A stretch of 64,000 bases of DNA from contig JAHITT010000006.1 in the NCBI GenBank assembly GCA_018817715.1, forward strand, positions 75,147-139,146, read 5' to 3'. How positions within the stretch are numbered: the first letter of the stretch is position 1; each line of letters opens with the position of its first letter. The DNA comes from Patescibacteria group bacterium. Its GTDB lineage: Bacteria; Patescibacteriota; Patescibacteriia; Veblenbacterales; UBA10138. This document shows, piece after piece, positions 8,314 through 61,694 of this stretch. The position numbers were made by a program, and so were the translations under genes. The notes below the pieces were generated by a model. It was given only the letters and a program-made list of their open reading frames with translations. It had not been told where the DNA came from and ran no database searches.

Positions 8314-8388
8314 TCTGGGGTAGTTCAAAGGTAGAACGCTGCGCTGTTAACGCAGATGTTGAAGGTTCGAGTCCTTCCCCCAGAGCCA
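8314..8388 (+). tRNA. tRNA-Asn (anticodon GTT)
   Basis: Hand-folded cloverleaf. Acceptor TCTGGGG/CCCCAGA, D stem GTTC/GAAC, anticodon stem CTGCG/CGCAG with loop CTGTTAA, T arm GAAGG-TTCGAGT-CCTTC, and an encoded CCA. Confidence 0.85.
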
Positions 8389-8496
8389 CGCTCAGCGTGG
8401 CTATACCCGCGCTTAGCGCGGGAGCCATATAGATACGTTGAGCAAAAAAAATCACCCGGTGTACGCTAGGTGATTTTTTTATGCTAAAATTAATTT

Positions 8497-8766
8497 ATGT
8501 ATTACACTTATGTTCTCCATTCTATCAAAGATGGACAACTATATACAGGCTATACTCCCAATCTAAAAAGTCGGATTAAATCCCACCAAGATGGCTATGT
8601 CACAGCAACAAAAAGTCGGCGTCCTCTAATATTAATATATTATGAATCATTTATAGTCGAATCTGACGCTAAACGAAGAGAACTTTTTCTAAAAGGTGGC
8701 AATGGTAAAAAAGAATTAGAAAAAATCTTAAAAGATTATTTCAAAAATAATCTCTGGCATAAATAA
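8497..8766 (+). CDS. GIY-YIG nuclease-domain protein
   Basis: YTYVL...LYTGYT...R...H pattern of the GIY-YIG fold. 89 aa. Confidence 0.7.
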   Translation: MYYTYVLHSIKDGQLYTGYTPNLKSRIKSHQDGYVTATKSRRPLILIYYESFIVESDAKRRELFLKGGNGKKELEKILKDYFKNNLWHK

Positions 8767-9019
8767 AATGAACATCCCAAAAACAAAACCTTAAAAACTA
8801 TCTTATTTAATTTTTAACTAATATCTATATCTATTTACGGAAAAAAACACGGTGACGGCATTGTCGGCGGCATATACGGCCTAGGGCTAATTGGTGCAGC
8901 AGTTTATTATATCCAGCAGGCTGACAGCTTTGTTGTAGGCCTTTTAGGCGTACTTAAGGCTATTATTTGGCCAGCCATGCTAATTTACAAATTAATGCAC
9001 TTTTTAGGCATGTAATTTT

Positions 9020-9059
9020 ATAGGCTTATTCGTACGAATAAGCCTATGATATCCACAGG
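9020..9059 (-). repeat. 40-bp repeat copy A containing a 28-bp dif-like palindrome (opposite orientation to copies B and C)
   Basis: ATAGGCTTATT-CGTACG-AATAAGCCTAT followed by GATATCCACAGG. It differs from B and C by paired compensatory changes that keep the palindrome perfect. Confidence 0.6.
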
Positions 9060-9070
9060 GTATATAAATT

Positions 9071-9292
9071 ATGTTTTTTCAAAAAAAGTTATCCTTATCT
9101 TATTTAAGCAAAAATTTGTCTGTAGTGGTGGGTTTGGTTTTGGTCTGGCGGGGGATTTGGTACATACTGGACTGGTTGGACTATGAATTATGGGGTGGTT
9201 ACCACGGCTGGACAGCTTTGGGCGGAGTGGTGCTGGGTTTGTTGATTTTATATCTACCCGACAAAGACTTAAAAGAGATCCAAAAACTCTAA
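9071..9292 (+). CDS. small membrane protein
   Basis: 73 aa with two TM segments. Confidence 0.35.
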   Translation: MFFQKKLSLSYLSKNLSVVVGLVLVWRGIWYILDWLDYELWGGYHGWTALGGVVLGLLILYLPDKDLKEIQKL

Positions 9293-54963: not shown

Positions 54964-55671
54964 ATGAATCTACAAAAATTAATGGAGCATTTTTTTAAAC
55001 TCTACGGCAAAAGAAATAGAATATTCCTGCAAAACTTATTGCAGCGCATAGTCTTTTTAAATCTGGCTATAGCCGATTTACAAGAAGCTATCAGAAAACA
55101 AGCCGACCCAGCTGATTTAAAAATAGCTTTAGCAAGAATAGTGTCTAGAATTTTCTGCGTAGCCGATTACTTTGCTAGCGACCAACTGGCGGTTGTTATG
55201 TCTCAAAAATACCCCAATAGCCATTGCAGTTACTGCCAAAAATTACCTTGTAAGTGTCCAGAAAAAAGACCTAGCAGTATATTAACAAATCCAAACCCTA
55301 CTCAACTGAACTGGACCTTAAAACAATGGTGCCGACATTTTAAAAAAATCTACGGCGCTAAAAATAAATCCAAGGGTCTTGAAAATATTCTTAACCGCTT
55401 GTTCAAGGAAATAAGCGAACTATTGATACTAGCTATGAAAACTCCCAGCACTTTTTCCGCCCATACAACCATAGACGACATAGAAATAGAATTTTCCAAA
55501 GAACTAGCTGATACTCTAGCCTGGACAATAGCTATAGCCAATTTATTGACAGTTGATTTAGAACAAGCTGTTTTGGAACGTTATGGTAATGGCTGCTGGA
55601 AGTGTCATAACACTACCTGTACCTGCACGGAATTCAATTATGACCAAGTGTTTTGGCCATCGGTAAAATAA
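54964..55671 (+). CDS. tandem MazG-like all-alpha NTP-pyrophosphohydrolase repeats, each ending in a Cys cluster
   Basis: Internal duplication. Repeat 1 ends KYPNSHCSYCQKLPCKCPE and repeat 2 ends RYGNGCWKCHNTTCTCTE. The helical EL..L motifs resemble MazG. Confidence 0.4.
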   Translation: MNLQKLMEHFFKLYGKRNRIFLQNLLQRIVFLNLAIADLQEAIRKQADPADLKIALARIVSRIFCVADYFASDQLAVVMSQKYPNSHCSYCQKLPCKCPEKRPSSILTNPNPTQLNWTLKQWCRHFKKIYGAKNKSKGLENILNRLFKEISELLILAMKTPSTFSAHTTIDDIEIEFSKELADTLAWTIAIANLLTVDLEQAVLERYGNGCWKCHNTTCTCTEFNYDQVFWPSVK

Positions 55672-55714: not shown

Positions 55715-55746
55715 AATATTAAAAACAACAAAATAACCTAAATTAA

Positions 55747-55786
55747 CCTGTGGATAACATAGGCTAATTCGTACGAATTAGCCTAT
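55747..55786 (+). repeat. 40-bp repeat copy B with 28-bp dif-like palindrome (left boundary of R-M island)
   Basis: CCTGTGGATAAC + ATAGGCTAATT-CGTACG-AATTAGCCTAT. Identical to copy C. Confidence 0.7.
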
Positions 55787-55793
55787 AAAGAAA

Positions 55794-56687: not shown

Positions 56688-59429
56688 TTATTCTTTATCA
56701 AACAATGTTGGCTTCTGTCCGTTTGTAAATTCTTCGGTTGCCAATTCCTTGTGGCGTAATTCGTCATATCCCTCAAAATCGCTCACGCTCGCAATTTTAA
56801 CTGCCTTGAACCCTCTTTTTTCCATTGCCTTGTCCACGAGGAAAAAAGTTTGAACGCCGCCCTCTTTTTCTAAAAGTTTTAGGGCTTTCTTGCGGTCATC
56901 AATTTGTTTCGCTTCGGCAAGATGCTTGCCTTTAACATCAACGACTATCCACTTGCCTTCGATAAACGCAAGAAAGTCCGGATAAAATGGTGCTGGCTTT
57001 ACTTCAACGGGATACTCAAAAGGATCATTTCTAACCCAAAAACTTTTCTTTTTCTTGTCCAATGAACAAAGATGCTCCAAAGCGTCAGCGACCCATTTTT
57101 CGGGCGGCGAATCAAACTTTACAAACGGACGAGCAGAAAATTTATATCCTTCAACAATAATACCTTTCTGCTGTAAGTGCGAGGACATGGGTTGATGAGA
57201 AGGAATCAAGTTGAGAGTAAGTCCGTCTCGTTTTCTAACAGTAATTTTGCCATCCACAAAAATATCTTTTACATTTTTCTTTCGGAATATAAATTGTCTC
57301 TTGAACATCAATTCAAATGCGCCTTGTCCGTAAAATTCAATAATACTCTTTTTTAGAGCTTTCAAGGCGCGTTTATAGTCCACCGCGTAGGCGGTATCAA
57401 CCTGTATTCCGGCACCAATAATGTTTTCTATCAGCTTCTTTGCAGTATCAAATGAGTTATTTCCGATAAATGAGCCAGTTTGTTCTATAAAATCTAACGC
57501 CCAGCGCGCAATTTCGTTTTTAGGCAAAGCTATTGTTCTGCGGGTAGTCGCTGGCTTGTCAGTCTGCATGGCGATTTCATCAGTTGTAATTTCCGCATAG
57601 TCAATCATTGCCAAAACTTCTGGCTTTAGAACTTTGTCACCCTTGGAAAGCCCGCACACCTCATCAACAAACGCTTTAACGCTTAACGATTGATCTTTTA
57701 GCGCGTCTTCAAAACTTTTACCGGTTGCAGTTGGTTTGATCTGCAAAATTGGAATTTCGTAGTCATCAATAATTTTTCTGTTTACTTTATTCTCGCGGTC
57801 TTCTTCCTCGGTTGGAATTTCAACATTTGCCGGCGACAATGCTAATTTTTGCCGAATTTCTTCTACGATTTGATCAAAGCGGCGGCCCCTCTCGCAAATA
57901 ACATGTAAAATTTCGCTCTGCTCTTTTAGTTCATCGCCCAAAATATCAAACTCCCGTTTTTCTTTGTAAAGTCGGAGACCACGCCCGATAAGTTGGGCCG
58001 CCGCGAGACCAACTTTCTCAACAGTATCGCCCAAAACAACGATTGTATAAAAATTGTCGTAATCAACGCCCTCGGTGAATATACGGACTTGGTTTACAAC
58101 TTCGGCATTATTGTCGTCGAGCGATTGATAATCTGTCCAGACCTCTTCCTCGCTTTTATTTTCGCTATGAATGGTGAAAACAGATTTTGCCACTCGCGAC
58201 AATTTTTTTACTAATTCTGATTTGTTTTTTGGTATATTCGTACGAACAATTTTAGCAATATCGGTTCCTTCACGATTTACTTGTTCCAACACATCATCAA
58301 GCTCGCCCGCAACCGAATCAGGCCAATTTTTGAGATAATCATCAATCGCGTCCGCGTGTTTTATAGTTCTTGCTTTGGTAAGCAACATCGCTTTTTTCAC
58401 TGGCGCGTTAGCGGCGGCAAGCGACTCGGTTTTTAGCAAATGAATCAACATGCCCCAAACCAATTTCTGCTTATCACTATCGGTCACTTCGTCTGAAATT
58501 TTCTCGTCGCTTGTTCCGCAACCAACCGCAAAAATCCTCTTGCCATATCCCTCTCCAATATATCTTTGCATTGGATACTTGTATAAGTTGTCTTGTCCAA
58601 AACTCTCGCTACCACCTTTTTCAAGTGATGTTGCGGTAAATTCCAGCACAGCGCTCGGCAAGAGCTCAAAAATTGCTTCTGCGGTTTTCTTTTGCTGGTA
58701 GTGGTGTGCTTCATCAGAAATAATGACTGGCCGCTTTTCGCGTAAAAATTCCACAAACGATATGGTGTGTTGCCCGCTTTTATCACGCCACAATGATTCT
58801 TCAAGCGGCCGGCGAACATATGGTGTCCCTTTCATTGTATCTTCACCGTCTTTTTTGTTCGATGAAGCCGCTTTATCGTAAAACTTCTGCATGTTGAAAA
58901 CATAGAAAGAAACGTCGCGATCATCTTCGTAATTGCAGGTTTTATCACGATAAGAATTTCCCGTAACCAAGTTGTAGGTTAAATTCCAACCGTCGCCAAA
59001 AATGCTTTTTACTGCGCGCGGCGTAAAGTTTTCTATCGTCTTATCAAACAAAATTGTGTTCGGAGTGAGAATAAGAAAATCTCTAAAACCTCGGTGGTAT
59101 AAGTCCAAAATCGCCGCGCCCATCAAAAGGGTTTTGCCGGAACCGGTCGCCATTTCAAAACCGACCTTATTCCACCCAACAATCTTATCGTCATCGTCTT
59201 TTCCTTGTTGAAGTGTTTTCTGCTTTAAGCTCCGGCTGTCAAACTTGTCTTTCCAAAAAAGTTGAAATGCGCTCAATGCTTCTATTTGATACGGGCGCAA
59301 GGCAAATTTAAGCAAATGCTGTATCTTTTCGTAATTCTCAATCGTTTTTGGCGACGGCGAACCGACGGCAATTTTGTATTGCTGGTCTTGGCTCACTAAA
59401 TCGTAAAATGTTTGCGGTTTTGTTCTCAT
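56688..59429 (-). CDS. res: Type III restriction enzyme Res subunit (SF2 helicase + PD-(D/E)XK endonuclease)
   Basis: MATGSGKT Walker A, DEAHH motif II, and C-terminal YPDF...VVDVKGK nuclease motif. 4-nt ATGA overlap with upstream mod. Confidence 0.85.
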   Translation of the reverse strand: MRTKPQTFYDLVSQDQQYKIAVGSPSPKTIENYEKIQHLLKFALRPYQIEALSAFQLFWKDKFDSRSLKQKTLQQGKDDDDKIVGWNKVGFEMATGSGKTLLMGAAILDLYHRGFRDFLILTPNTILFDKTIENFTPRAVKSIFGDGWNLTYNLVTGNSYRDKTCNYEDDRDVSFYVFNMQKFYDKAASSNKKDGEDTMKGTPYVRRPLEESLWRDKSGQHTISFVEFLREKRPVIISDEAHHYQQKKTAEAIFELLPSAVLEFTATSLEKGGSESFGQDNLYKYPMQRYIGEGYGKRIFAVGCGTSDEKISDEVTDSDKQKLVWGMLIHLLKTESLAAANAPVKKAMLLTKARTIKHADAIDDYLKNWPDSVAGELDDVLEQVNREGTDIAKIVRTNIPKNKSELVKKLSRVAKSVFTIHSENKSEEEVWTDYQSLDDNNAEVVNQVRIFTEGVDYDNFYTIVVLGDTVEKVGLAAAQLIGRGLRLYKEKREFDILGDELKEQSEILHVICERGRRFDQIVEEIRQKLALSPANVEIPTEEEDRENKVNRKIIDDYEIPILQIKPTATGKSFEDALKDQSLSVKAFVDEVCGLSKGDKVLKPEVLAMIDYAEITTDEIAMQTDKPATTRRTIALPKNEIARWALDFIEQTGSFIGNNSFDTAKKLIENIIGAGIQVDTAYAVDYKRALKALKKSIIEFYGQGAFELMFKRQFIFRKKNVKDIFVDGKITVRKRDGLTLNLIPSHQPMSSHLQQKGIIVEGYKFSARPFVKFDSPPEKWVADALEHLCSLDKKKKSFWVRNDPFEYPVEVKPAPFYPDFLAFIEGKWIVVDVKGKHLAEAKQIDDRKKALKLLEKEGGVQTFFLVDKAMEKRGFKAVKIASVSDFEGYDELRHKELATEEFTNGQKPTLFDKE

Positions 59430-61149
59430 AGTAATTTATATTCTCTCAAAATTGCTGCCGGTATCTTTTTTACCATAACGCGATCGTCCAACGAATCTGG
59501 CGGCACGGAAACGGCGACATTGGTAAAAATTGTTAGGTGTTTGAATTTTTCTCTTTCCAATTCGGCAATAATTTTTTCATATAGATCAGCCGTTAGTGTT
59601 TTTACTTCTCTTGAAGCAAAAGAAATGGCGAAATGATAGCGTGCAGATTGGTGCTTGCCGAGATACATACCTTCCTTCTCCACCCACTTCGTCTCTATCG
59701 GTCTGTATTGGAAATGTAAAAATACTGCTTCGGCCATTTCTGCTGCTTTCAGCGACCAATTCATATCTTGTTCATGTATCACGCTCTCGCCTAGTTGGTA
59801 GTATTTGAACCCTCCGCCACCTTTCCAGTTCACATCCTTGCTTATCCCTGTTTGATCTTTCCCAGAGATGATTTTTTGTAGGCGTGGCATGATGAGTTCG
59901 TCAGCGTGACGTCCCATTTCTACCATAATCCAACGACGTTCCATTTTGTGCGCCACGGCTCCCGTGGTCCCAGAACCAGCAAAAGAGTCAAAAACCAAAT
60001 CATTTTTTCAGTCGAGATTGAGATAATACGCTGTATAAGTTTTTCAGGTTTTTTTGATTTGGGAAAGTCAACCCCTCCTTCGCCCGCAATTCCTTCCCAA
60101 GAAATATCGTCCCAAATATCTGTTATCGCCTCTACTGGCAATAGATTTCCATCCACTTCCTGTAATCTTTCTCTATAAAATAGGACTCTCTCGCCCCCAA
60201 TGAATAAATAGTCCATATCATCATTTGGATGTCTAACAATTTTATTCTTGAGTTTGCGCGACTTTTCAAGAGTCTTAATCCTCTTGAGACGAGCTCCACC
60301 AGTAACCGACGCCGTACGAAAGACTCTCTCGGCATTTTTAATTGCAAAAACTCCTCTTTCAGCATTAAATTCATCCTCTCTTAATTCTTTTTTTGCGTCC
60401 CTTGCATTTGAAAATCCAAGCTCTAGCGCCACAACTTCATCAATATTCTTCCATGACCATTTATCTTCTGGTTTTTTTATATCGTCAAAAACCCAACGAT
60501 ATGCTTGATCATATCCCTTTTCAATAAATGTCTTTTTGAATTTCAGTTGAGCAGAGTCTTTTGCGAAAATCAAAAGGTTATTTGCTGATTTGAAAAGCTG
60601 ATTTGAAGTGTGCTTAAAACCAAAAGGACTATTTGCTTTTATAGTCACAGTATTTAGATAATTCTGTCTGCCAAATGTCTCATCAAGCAAAACACGGCAA
60701 TACGCGACTTCTTTATCATCCAAATGTACGAAAAGAATCCCGTCCTTTCTCAAGAGTTTGCGTAGCAGAAACAACCTGTCGCGCATCATTGTTAGCCATT
60801 CAGAATGTTCAAGATTGTCGTCATAGTGTTTGAAGGCGTTCCCTGTATTAAATGGAGGGTCAATATAAATACATTTCACTTTTTCCTTATCCGGTCGGCC
60901 CTTAAACATCTCAACCAAACTTCGCAAAACTAACAAGTTATCGCCCTTGATAAGCATGTTATCGCCTGTCTTGTCGCCAAAGTCTTTGGCAAAGCGTAAA
61001 ATGCGCGGTTCGGCAACGCGAATATCATTTTTCGGCACCCAAACCGGCCGGACACCCTTGCCCTCCTTTTCGTCAATTTCGTAGTAAAGCGAAAGGTCTT
61101 TGTTTATCCAATCCAGCCGTAACGAGCCCTTGTAACTTCTTTTTTGCAT
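59426..61149 (-). pseudogene. mod: Type III Mod beta-class N6-adenine methyltransferase, split by frameshift at an A6 tract (phase-variable or pseudogene)
   Basis: The N-terminal ORF has IYIDPPFNTG (motif IV). The C-terminal ORF has FDSFAGSGTTG (motif I) but begins at TTG. Reading minus-strand GAAAAAATG, one extra A gives continuous ...STEKNDLVFDSF.... Confidence 0.8.
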
Positions 61150-61156
61150 AATTACT

Positions 61157-61284
61157 TTATTAAATCATCTAAGGTAACACTAAGAGCCTTAGCGATTTTC
61201 CGCCAGAGGAGGACAGATTTTAACTATCTCAATAGTCGGATTAGGGGTGGCGCCGGCTTTGATTTTGGCCATAGTTAGCATATT
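61157..61284 (-). pseudogene. remnant XRE-type HTH (controller-like) gene disrupted by a 22-nt insertion
   Basis: Frame A reads MNMLTMAKIKAGATPNPTIEIVKI.... Frame B ends ...IAKALSVTLDDLIK*. Removing TGTCCTCCTCTGGCGGAAAATC, flanked by an AAAATC direct repeat, fuses them. Confidence 0.35.
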
Positions 61285-61349
61285 CATATAGCTTTACTAT
61301 ACCAAAAATTACCAAACAAGATAACTAAGCTAAAATCAGCCAAAACCAG

Positions 61350-61389
61350 CCTGTGGATAACATAGGCTAATTCGTACGAATTAGCCTAT
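61350..61389 (+). repeat. 40-bp repeat copy C with 28-bp dif-like palindrome (right boundary of R-M island)
   Basis: Identical 40-mer to copy B. About 235 bp from tRNA-Gln. Confidence 0.7.
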
Positions 61390-61623
61390 GAGGAAAATTT
61401 AGGCCAAAATTCAAAAAATTATAAAATCCTATCAGATTGCTTCCTCCTTCGCTATCCTCCTTTATTAAAATTTCGGCAGGACTAGAAGCTACGGCGGACA
61501 AGTCGTCGCCGTGCTCCTCGCAATGACAAAGGAAATATCATCGCGCCCTTCGAATCCATTAACTTATCCCAAACAAAAAAACAGACTAATGTCTGTCATC
61601 TTATAAACCATTTATGTACAAAG

Positions 61624-61694
61624 CTGGGAGACATGGATTCGAACCATGATTACCAGGGCCAGAACCTGGCGTCCTACCATTAGACGATCTCCCA
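61624..61694 (-). tRNA. tRNA-Gln (anticodon CTG)
   Basis: Hand-folded on the minus strand. Acceptor TGGGAGA/TCTCCCA with a U1-A72 pair typical of bacterial tRNA-Gln. Anticodon stem CCAGG/CCTGG with loop TTCTGGC. T arm CATGG-TTCGAAT-CCATG. CCA is not encoded. Confidence 0.8.

What the first reader, a model, noticed from the sequence alone, without database searches (positions are those of the whole stretch)
59981..60012. mod gene split exactly at an A6 homopolymer; +1 A restores a full-length Type III Mod
Minus-strand sequence ACTGAAAAAATGATTTGGTTTTTGAC separates the N-terminal ORF from the C-terminal ORF. The N-terminal ORF carries DPPF motif IV and ends ...RIISISTEK-MIWFLT...*. The C-terminal ORF begins at TTG with VFDSFAGSGTTG (motif I). 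With A7 instead of A6 the reading frame runs ...STEKNDLVFDSFAGSGTTG..., which is the expected beta-class motif order, giving a Mod of about 595 aa. Type III mod genes are the classic phase-variable phasevarion switches that use simple repeats. Here the same pattern could equally be a homopolymer sequencing or assembly error, or early pseudogenisation of an acquired system. res, 913 aa, appears intact and is translationally coupled through an ATGA overlap. If mod really is inactive, res without Mod should be inactive too, because Type III Res requires Mod. The system would then be silenced.
Basis: seen in the sequence. Interest (0 to 1): 0.6.

Follow-up and report, generated by a model that had tools for sequence, protein, structure and literature searches.

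The report
Young frameshift in Type III mod
A DNA-methylase gene of a restriction-modification defence system in an uncultured Patescibacteria (CPR) bacterium is broken by one missing base, which most likely silences an otherwise intact, horizontally acquired system; this looks like an ordinary recent gene inactivation, not a programmed on/off switch.

Summary
On the minus strand, a Type III mod gene (59426-61149) is split after codon K382 at an A6 run (60003-60008). One extra base restores a 574-aa Mod (not ~595) with a single N6_N4_Mtase domain spanning the break. Res (913 aa) is intact and coupled to mod by an ATGA overlap.

The phase-variation reading is not supported:
- A6/A7 is below the 9-nt criterion used for phase-variable mod genes.
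- The tract is not conserved. Relatives read GAA AAA GAA, GAG AAA AAT or GAA AAA GGA.
- 0 of 121 related loci are frameshifted, and mod-res contains no simple-sequence repeat.

Systematic homopolymer error is unlikely. Only this one of 289 A/T runs of 6 or more in the window splits a gene, and a second assembler gives identical sequence.

No intact allele of this strain exists in a 15-billion-protein collection.

The lesion is young. The repaired Mod has no private change at 79 family-invariant columns, and Res has only 2 at about 350.

The module looks acquired: its GC is above every other part of the window, and no flanking genes are shared with relatives. A small HTH gene that abuts mod in many relatives survives here only as a broken remnant.

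Best reading: a recent inactivating deletion that silences the system. Reads are needed to exclude an A7 minority.

The parts
60003..60008 (-). A6 run (T6 on the + strand) where the mod reading frame breaks, after codon K382. One base of codon 383 is missing.
   Evidence: tblastn of the repaired protein gives residues 1-382 in frame -2 and 382-574 in frame -1, abutting at 60004-60007.
59920..61149 (-). mod N-terminal ORF, 409 aa: 382 native residues (N-terminal region, motif IV DPPF at 97-100, target-recognition domain, motif X KKPEKL at 366-371) plus 27 out-of-frame residues.
   Evidence: The exact ORF is present in JGI, ENA and Logan assemblies.
59426..60002 (-). mod C-terminal coding part (residues 383-574 of the repaired protein): motif I FAGSGTTG and the C-terminal region. 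The mechanical ORF runs from TTG at 59998; gene callers start it at MERRW (172 aa), which lacks motif I.
59426..59429 (-). ATGA overlap of the mod stop and the res start.
   Evidence...TTA CTA TGA / ATG AGA ACA....
56688..59429 (-). res, 913 aa, intact. It has Walker A GSGKT (96-100), DEAH (239-242) and C-terminal PD...D-x-K (YPDF 816-819, VDVKG 830-834), all in columns invariant across 21 homologues.
   Evidence: The exact protein is NCBI MBU1039305.1, Patescibacteria group bacterium.
61152..61287 (-). Decayed remnant of a small HTH_3 (XRE-type) gene that abuts mod in many relatives. Only residues ~36-54 (61219-61287, one frame) and ~54-69 plus the stop (61152-61202, another frame) remain. 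The DNA-binding N-terminal half is absent.
61333..61396 (-). Copy B of a dispersed hairpin element (30-nt perfect palindrome plus TTATCCACAGG), immediately upstream of the truncated HTH remnant. It forms a direct repeat with copy A.
55730..55793 (-). Copy A of the same element, starting right after the inositol-monophosphatase stop. A and B (86% over 64 nt) bracket the HTH remnant, mod, res and IMPase.
61623..61694 (-). tRNA-Gln(CTG) upstream of the module, followed by a terminator-like hairpin at 61580-61597. No sigma-70-like site was found between that hairpin and mod.

Best explanation
The locus is a horizontally acquired Type III restriction-modification module (HTH remnant, mod, res) in a Patescibacteria (CPR) genome. 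Its mod gene recently lost one base, most probably by replication slippage that shortened an A7 run (GAA AAA AAT) to A6.

The frameshift ends Mod after residue 382. This removes motif I (the AdoMet-binding FxGxG loop) and everything after it, so no active methyltransferase is made. Type III Res needs Mod to recognise DNA, so the intact res is inert and the whole system is silent. Losing mod first is harmless to the cell.

Shown here: the break, its exact position, the Type III identity, the integrity of res, the lack of any other damage, the absence of the lesion in relatives, and the signs of foreign origin.

Inferred: that the sequence reflects the real population majority, that the ancestor carried A7, that the truncated product is inactive, and that the state is effectively permanent. 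Reversion would occur only at the ordinary rate for a short homopolymer.
For: - Frame break and repair. A single MTase domain spans the break.
- Type III identity.
- Res is full-length with invariant helicase and nuclease motifs.
- The lesion is lineage-specific: 0 of 121 related loci are frameshifted, apart from two scaffold N-gaps. At the site, relatives show codon substitutions (TEKED, TEKND, TEKGD, TKKGD with an intact A7, TEKKD with an intact A8), not length variation.
- The lesion is young: 0 private substitutions at 79 invariant Mod columns, and 2 conservative ones at ~350 invariant Res columns. There is no excess dN downstream of the break.
- Not a systematic error: 289 A/T runs of 6 or more in the window, and only this one splits a gene. 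The Logan contig from a different assembler is 100% identical over 5.6 kb.
- Public assemblies contain the split ORFs (JGI, ENA, Logan) but neither repaired 574-aa allele.
- NCBI holds the exact Res protein but neither Mod piece, as expected if NCBI's annotation marks mod as a pseudogene (inference).
- Acquired and decaying context: GC 0.413 against a maximum of 0.406 elsewhere; no shared flanks with relatives; Res at 90% identity or more in Bacteroidota-labelled and multi-Mb contigs; the upstream HTH gene is reduced to a two-frame remnant; a relative (L126) has its mod 5'-truncated by a different lesion.
Against: - No reads were available, so an A7 minority or a consensus error cannot be excluded.
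- The three assemblies may all derive from the same read set.
- Synonymous sites are saturated against the closest relative (pS ~0.7), so relaxed selection cannot be measured. 'Young' rests only on the absence of other lesions, which is equally what an intact, functional gene with a sequencing error would show.
- The HTH remnant is weak support, because the closest relatives with intact mod (L003-L006) also lack the HTH gene.
- The ancestor need not have been A7.
Confidence: 0.7

Rival explanations
1. Sequencing or assembly artefact: the true genome has one more base (A7 or equivalent) and an intact, working Type III system.
For: The gene has no other defect of any kind, which is exactly what an intact gene would show. 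Homopolymers are the classic site of indel errors. All assemblies carrying the ORF may come from one read set.
Against: Only 1 of 289 A/T runs of 6 or more, and none of the 98 runs of 7 or more, splits a gene in 64 kb, so there is no general homopolymer problem. Two different assemblers (a MEGAHIT-style k141 contig and Logan) give identical sequence across the tract. Indel errors at 6-7-nt runs are rare in short-read consensus sequence (my own knowledge). No assembly in the 15-billion-protein collection yields the intact protein.
Confidence: 0.1
2. Reversible contingency switch: the A6/A7 tract toggles Mod ON and OFF in the population, a phasevarion-like epigenetic switch in a CPR bacterium.
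For: The break lies in a mononucleotide run, and one slippage event restores the frame. The family shows multiple target-recognition-domain alleles on a conserved Res, as phasevarion mod groups do. The survey authors say their 9-nt cut-off may miss short tracts (PMC5909438).
Against: The tract is 6-7 nt, against the 9-nt criterion. It is not conserved: the closest relatives interrupt it with G or encode other residues, and relatives with A7 or A8 are simply intact. 0 of 121 relatives are in the OFF state. The tract lies at codon 382 of 574, not near the 5' end. mod-res has no true SSR. Equal or longer A runs are common in this genome (98 of 7 or more in 64 kb), so nothing marks this one as special. 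No ON allele exists in public assemblies.
Confidence: 0.08
3. Phenotypic rescue: the DNA really is A6, but RNA polymerase backward slippage (+1 A) or -1 ribosomal slippage of tRNA-Lys on A-AAA-A produces some full-length Mod, so the system stays partly active.
For: Either event would recreate exactly ...TEKNDLVF... (direct reading). Transcriptional +1 insertions concentrate in A/T runs (PMC5574713).
Against: Their frequency rises exponentially with run length, so a 6-nt run is near the bottom of the range. The frameshift is not conserved in any homologue. The RNA downstream has no unusual structure (z = +0.70). No Shine-Dalgarno-like stimulator is visible upstream (direct reading). At best this is adventitious leak, not an evolved mechanism.
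Confidence: 0.05
4. Functional split enzyme: the N-fragment (catalytic motif IV, target-recognition domain, motif X) and the C-fragment (AdoMet-binding motifs) are made separately and assemble into an active Mod.
For: The break falls between motif X and motif I, a boundary between the two halves of the fold. Split or two-subunit DNA methyltransferases are known (my own knowledge). A TTG at 59998 precedes motif I.
Against: None of 121 homologous loci has this arrangement. The N-fragment carries 27 junk residues. No ribosome-binding sequence precedes the TTG (direct reading). Gene callers start the C-ORF at MERRW, downstream of motif I.
Confidence: 0.03

Closest known systems
EcoP15I / EcoP1I-type Type III restriction-modification systems (Mod2Res1; PDB 4ZCF)
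   Same: mod-then-res operon. Mod is a beta-class N6-adenine methyltransferase (motif IV DPPF, then a central target-recognition domain, then motif X, then motif I). Res has SF2 helicase motifs and a C-terminal PD-(D/E)xK nuclease. The best PDB sequence match is EcoP15I Mod, and the PADLOC Type III profiles match.
   Different: The sequence relationship to EcoP15I is remote (E=4e-21, partial). Res has no PDB sequence match at all. The host is a Patescibacteria MAG. Many relatives carry a small HTH gene abutting mod. Here mod is frameshifted, so the system is probably inactive.
Phasevarion mod genes (modA of Haemophilus/Neisseria, modH of Helicobacter pylori; survey in PMC5909438)
   Same: A Type III mod whose frame depends on the length of a nucleotide run. 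The family shows a conserved N-terminus and C-terminus with a hypervariable central target-recognition domain (3-25% identity between alleles) on a conserved Res.
   Different: The tract is only 6-7 nt (criterion: 9 or more for mononucleotides), is poly-A rather than poly-G or a tetranucleotide, is not conserved among relatives, lies two-thirds of the way into the gene, shows no length polymorphism in public data, and sits in an environmental organism.
Frameshift-inactivated restriction-modification genes in bacterial genomes generally (for example the many inactive R-M genes of Helicobacter pylori strains; my own knowledge)
   Same: A single-base indel at a short homopolymer in an acquired R-M gene, with the partner gene still intact. 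In a Type III system, loss of Mod is harmless to the host.
   Different: Nothing in principle. This is one more instance, in a CPR genome.
Poly(A)-tract frameshifts rescued by transcriptional slippage in AT-rich endosymbionts (Buchnera, Blochmannia; PMC5574713, PMC3017870)
   Same: An AT-rich reduced genome with a frameshift inside an A run. A +1 A in the mRNA would restore the frame.
   Different: Slippage frequency rises exponentially with run length, measured up to 11 nt in Buchnera, so a 6-nt run here should slip rarely. The arrangement is not conserved.

Membership tests
Type III restriction-modification system | Mod is a beta-class amino-methyltransferase: motif IV (DPPY/F), then the target-recognition domain, then motif X, then motif I (FxGxG) | tested here: met
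   DPPF at 97-100, KKPEKL at 366-371, FAGSGTTG at 390-397 in the repaired protein. A single N6_N4_Mtase hit covers 91-418.
Type III restriction-modification system | Mod matches Type III methyltransferase profiles or structures better than other classes | tested here: met
   PADLOC MTase_III E=4.3e-115, against E=2e-36 for the best MTase_II. Top PDB hits are EcoP15I Mod (4zcf), a Mod (6k0w) and Mbo45V.
Type III restriction-modification system | An adjacent downstream res encodes an SF2 helicase-like ATPase with a C-terminal PD-(D/E)xK nuclease | tested here: met
   Pfam ResIII E=2.5e-22; PADLOC REase_III E=7.9e-15; GSGKT, DEAH, YPDF and VDVKG are invariant in 21 homologues; ATGA overlap with mod.
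Type III restriction-modification system | An intact mod ORF, required for both methylation and restriction | tested here: not met
   There is a frameshift after codon 382, and motif I is out of frame. By descent the locus is a Type III system, but as sequenced it is probably not a working one.
Type III restriction-modification system | Hemimethylation of an asymmetric site at N6-adenine, and ATP-dependent cleavage needing two inversely oriented sites | not testable with these tools
   Needs a methylome or biochemistry.
Phasevarion (phase-variable Type III mod) | A simple-sequence repeat long enough to phase-vary: 9 or more for mononucleotides, 5 or more units for dinucleotides, 3 or more units for longer repeats (PMC5909438) | tested here: not met
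   The tract is A6 (A7 if repaired). The longest A run in mod is 7. Tandem Repeats Finder finds no SSR in mod-res. The criterion is quoted.
Phasevarion (phase-variable Type III mod) | Tract-length polymorphism (ON and OFF alleles) among strains or within a population | tested here: inconclusive
   No intact allele of this strain exists among ~15 billion proteins, and the independent assemblies are identical. Relatives differ by codon substitutions, not by tract length. No reads were available.
Phasevarion (phase-variable Type III mod) | The repeat tract is conserved across the mod group | tested here: not met
   The site reads GAAAAAGAA, GAGAAAAAT, GAAAAAGGA, GAACAGGAT and so on in relatives.
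Phasevarion (phase-variable Type III mod) | Multiple allelic target-recognition domains within one mod group | tested here: met
   The central region is 3-25% identical to L014/L016/L017/L018, while the termini are 80-95% identical and Res is 86-90% identical. This feature is general to Type III families and is not specific to phasevarions.
Programmed frameshift / recoding site | The frameshift is conserved among homologues | tested here: not met
   0 of 121 related loci are split, apart from two N-gap artefacts.
Programmed frameshift / recoding site | Stimulatory elements: a downstream structure at 5-9 nt, or an upstream SD-like sequence | tested here: not met
   The 78 nt downstream fold no better than shuffles (z = +0.70). 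The only tidy hairpin lies ~30 nt downstream of the tract. No GGAGG is visible upstream.
R-M module with an upstream HTH (controller-like) gene | An intact small HTH gene immediately upstream of mod | tested here: not met
   Relatives have 65-75-aa HTH_3 (E~1e-16) or HTH_17 genes ending 2-7 nt before mod. The window keeps only residues ~36-69, in two frames. A regulatory role for this HTH is assumed by analogy and was not tested.

The most novel reading that the evidence does not exclude
The short A6/A7 run acts as a real, low-frequency reversible ON/OFF switch for Mod, possibly aided by +1 A transcriptional slippage. That would give a minimal-genome CPR episymbiont a phasevarion-like epigenetic or defence toggle with a tract far shorter than those currently accepted as phase-variable.
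Probability: 0.06. Interest if true: 0.55.

Novelty: new member of a known kind. Interest (0 to 1): 0.15.

Why it matters
As it stands, it matters little. This is one more acquired restriction-modification system caught at the first step of decay, and it should be annotated as a mod pseudogene with a stranded, intact res.

It has modest value in two ways. It is a clean example of the order of decay that is safe in Type III systems: mod can be lost first, because Res depends on Mod. It also warns against calling phase variation from a short homopolymer in an AT-rich genome.

If reads showed real A6/A7 heterogeneity, that would extend phasevarion-type switching to CPR bacteria and to much shorter tracts. 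That would interest people who study epigenetic regulation and phage defence in reduced genomes.

Tried and rejected
- dN/dS on either side of the break. Synonymous sites are saturated against even the closest relative (pS 0.68-0.87), so selection since the frameshift cannot be measured. I kept only the statement that there is no excess dN.
- Short junction-centred protein search for an A7 allele. It returned only proteins under 230 aa and not even the window's own ORFs, so it says nothing either way. I replaced it with an exact-sequence look-up.
- The 64-nt direct repeats as island att sites. A third, inverted copy at 9021-9059 and the element's absence from all related loci show it is a dispersed element of the host genome and not part of the R-M module. 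Whether recombination at it truncated the HTH gene is open.
- Frameshift stimulators: none found.
- A second Mod-like gene in the window that could partner Res: none found.
- Other homopolymer-split genes in the window: all six candidates are ordinary stop/ATG gene junctions.
- P0123 as a possible second split at the same tract. It is a different lesion: mod is 5'-truncated, with only residues 336-574 left, and the site reads TEKED.
- Rfam at gathering and permissive thresholds: only the two tRNAs.
- Synteny. dnaX, the inositol monophosphatase and orf235 are absent from the flanks of all relatives, so no empty-site comparison was possible.
- The window's genome is not among the GTDB species representatives.
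Full report
**1. Observation.** The minus strand at 59900-60100 reads ...ATC TCG ACT GAA AAA ATG ATT TGG TTT TTG ACT CTT.... The A6 run is at window 60003-60008.

The ORF list gives three genes on the minus strand:
- a 409-aa ORF at 59920-61149;
- a 190-aa ORF from TTG at 59426-59998, beginning VFDSFAGSGTTG;
- a 913-aa ORF at 56688-59429.

The N-ORF is therefore 382 native residues plus 27 out-of-frame residues. The mod stop and the res start overlap as ATGA. The description is confirmed.

**2. Identity.**
- The repaired protein gives one Pfam N6_N4_Mtase hit over residues 91-418, covering profile positions 1-217 of 221. One domain has therefore been cut in two.
- PADLOC calls it a Type III methyltransferase (E=4.3e-115) and calls the downstream gene a Type III restriction enzyme (E=7.9e-15).
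- The best solved-structure sequence match is EcoP15I Mod, 4zcf. Res has no PDB sequence match but matches Pfam ResIII.
- Res keeps GSGKT, DEAH, YPDF and VDVKG in columns invariant across 21 homologues. Mod has DPPF, KKPEKL and FAGSGTTG in the beta-class order.

**3. Is the sequence real?**
- The exact 409-aa ORF occurs on three contigs from JGI, ENA and Logan.
- The Logan contig L002 came from a different assembler and is 100% identical to the window over 5,623 nt, A6 included.
- The same strain, including the res 3' end, also appears in a second run, SRR10598177 (L125), but that contig does not reach the tract.
- The window holds 289 A/T runs of 6 or more and 98 of 7 or more. A scan for runs that join two long open frames found seven. 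Six are ordinary stop/ATG gene junctions, and only the mod tract splits a gene.

A general homopolymer error problem is therefore excluded. A single local consensus error is not excluded, because I had no reads and the assemblies may share one read set.

**4. Relatives.** A search of 5.8 billion protein clusters found intact homologues of 573-576 aa at up to 87% identity. I fetched 121 related loci from metagenomes and genomes.

At the homologous site the closest relatives read:
- ACA GAA AAA GAA GAT (TEKED, L003);
- ACT GAG AAA AAT GAT (TEKND, L004/L005);
- ACG GAA AAA GGA GAT (L006);
- ACA AAA AAA GGA (L007, an intact A7);
- ACT GAA AAA AAA GAT (L033, a more distant relative, an intact A8).

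The tract is thus an accident of Lys, Glu and Asn codons in an AT-rich gene and is not a conserved feature. None of the 121 loci is frameshifted; the only two apparent splits are runs of N. This rules out a conserved programmed frameshift and gives no support to a family-wide switch.

An exact-sequence look-up among ~15 billion proteins found the split ORFs but neither repaired allele, whether N383 or D383.

**5. Age of the lesion.** In a 29-sequence alignment, the repaired Mod has no private substitution at the 79 columns invariant in all the others. Res has two, both conservative (I to V, K to Q), at about 350 such columns, which is fewer than most intact relatives. Neither part has an internal stop.

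Nonsynonymous divergence downstream of the break is no higher than between intact relatives: dN is 0.084 against L003, and 0.098 between L003 and L006. Synonymous sites are saturated, so dN/dS cannot date the event. The single missing base is the only defect, so the lesion is either very recent or not real.

**6. What exactly was lost.** Codon 383 is one base short. Enumerating all single-base insertions that keep ST..DLVFD in frame shows four one-step ancestors compatible with residues seen in relatives (G, D, N, E or K at 383):
- GAA AAA AAT (A7, seven equivalent deletions);
- GAG AAA AAT (identical to L004/L005);
- GAA AAG AAT;
- GAA AAA GAT.

Contraction of an A7 is the most likely route, given the slippage bias and AT-rich codon usage, but 'split exactly at a homopolymer' is partly a consequence of the deletion itself.

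**7. Phase variation.** The REBASE survey of Type III mod genes counted a gene as phase-variable only with a mononucleotide tract of 9 or more, 5 or more dinucleotide units, or 3 or more units of longer repeats. It cites measured switching rates for 9-nt tracts (PMC5909438).

Here the tract is 6 nt (7 if repaired), the longest A run in mod is 7, and Tandem Repeats Finder finds no SSR in mod-res. The tract lies at codon 382 of 574, just after the target-recognition domain.

The family does show the allele structure familiar from phasevarion mods. Against L014, L016, L017 and L018, the termini are 80-95% identical while the central ~260 columns are 3-25% identical, and their Res proteins are 86-90% identical to the window's. 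That is a general property of Type III families.

**8. Recoding.** A +1 A in the mRNA, or a -1 slip of tRNA-Lys on A-AAA-A, would recreate TEKND. Transcriptional insertions do concentrate in A/T runs, but their frequency rises exponentially with run length (PMC5574713), so a 6-nt run should slip rarely. The 78 nt downstream fold no better than shuffles (z = +0.70), and no homologue conserves the arrangement. Any rescue would be adventitious leak.

**9. Context.**
- mod+res has GC 0.413. Other 2.7-kb windows average 0.362 +/- 0.017 with a maximum of 0.406. GC3 is 0.38-0.42 in mod-res, against 0.33-0.37 in the neighbouring genes.
- No relative shares the window's flanking genes.
- The 90%-identity Res cluster includes members labelled Bacteroidota and members on multi-megabase contigs. 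Together these indicate a mobile module.
- The exact Res is NCBI MBU1039305.1 from a 'Patescibacteria group bacterium'. The closest Mods come from Patescibacteria MAGs.
- Many relatives carry a 65-75-aa HTH_3 gene (E~1e-16), or in a few an HTH_17 gene, ending 2-7 nt before the mod ATG. The window keeps only residues ~36-54 and ~54-69 of it, in two frames, at 61152-61287. The stop is still 2 nt before mod, and the DNA-binding half is missing. This is a second and older lesion in the module. It is weak evidence, because the closest relatives with intact mod also lack the HTH gene.
- A terminator-like hairpin follows tRNA-Gln at 61580-61597, and no sigma-70-like site lies between it and mod. This is a weak hint that the operon may also lack a promoter.
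- A relative, L126, has lost the first ~335 codons of mod through a different rearrangement. Modules of this clade decay by various routes.

| Explanation | Confidence |
|---|---|
| Recent inactivating deletion (best explanation) | ~0.7 |
| Artefact | ~0.1 |
| Reversible switch | ~0.08 |
| Slippage rescue | ~0.05 |
| Functional split enzyme | ~0.03 |

Interest is low. It would rise only if reads showed real A6/A7 heterogeneity.

Noticed in passing
window 55730-55793, 61333-61396 and 9021-9059: A dispersed ~45-nt element: a perfect 30-nt palindrome (CATAGGCTAATTCGTACGAATTAGCCTATG) followed by TTATCCACAGG, which contains a perfect DnaA-box-like TTATCCACA. There are three copies in 64 kb, against 0 expected by chance. 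The third copy is inverted and carries compensatory changes in both palindrome arms. As RNA it folds into a 13-bp hairpin (z = -3.7 to -5.6). It matches no Rfam family and is absent from all 121 related loci. Two copies bracket the HTH remnant, mod, res and IMPase as 64-nt direct repeats (86%). Two copies lie a few hundred nt downstream of tRNA genes. Its function is unknown: protein-binding site, terminator, or REP/MITE-like repeat.
   Followed up: partly
window 61152-61287 (-): A decayed remnant of a small XRE-type HTH gene directly upstream of mod. Intact 65-75-aa versions abut mod in many relatives, which suggests a controller-like regulator is common in this Type III family.
   Followed up: yes
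related loci L013-L018 compared with window mod/res: Res is 86-90% identical to the window's, while Mod is only 56-60% identical because the central target-recognition region is 3-25% identical. This is clear allelic swapping of the target-recognition domain on a conserved Res backbone among Patescibacteria.
   Followed up: partly
Res cluster: The 90%-identity cluster of the window's Res includes proteins labelled Bacteroidota and members on contigs of 1.2-3.5 Mb, much larger than CPR genomes. This suggests recent cross-phylum transfer of the module, or mis-binning.
   Followed up: no
L126 4896-5615: A relative's module in which mod has lost its first ~335 codons and sits next to a type II/IV secretion-like gene cluster, with res following. 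It is an independent example of decay of this module.
   Followed up: yes
window 8314-9292: tRNA-Asn (8314-8388) is followed by an 89-aa stand-alone GIY-YIG nuclease-domain ORF (8497-8766, Pfam E=4e-14). Hairpin-element copy C then lies 12 nt upstream of a 73-aa ORF that looks like a small membrane protein.
   Followed up: partly
window 61400-61580 (-): A ~180-nt stretch between the tRNA-Gln terminator-like hairpin and hairpin-element copy B. It looks locally G+C-richer by eye (GGCGCGATG...GGCGACGACTTGTCCGCCG...GAAGGAGGAAG). It has no ORF over 44 aa and no Rfam match. Its origin is unknown.
   Followed up: no
window 54964-55671 (+): A 235-aa ORF with no Pfam hit, convergent with the IMPase gene. 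It contains two cysteine-rich motifs (CSYCQKLPCKC and CWKCHNTTCTC).
   Followed up: no
whole window: Cumulative GC skew falls monotonically from about 12 kb to 64 kb. In the 54-64 kb stretch examined, nearly all long ORFs are on the minus strand. No skew reversal, and so no origin or terminus, is visible in that part of the window despite the DnaA-box-like repeats.
   Followed up: no
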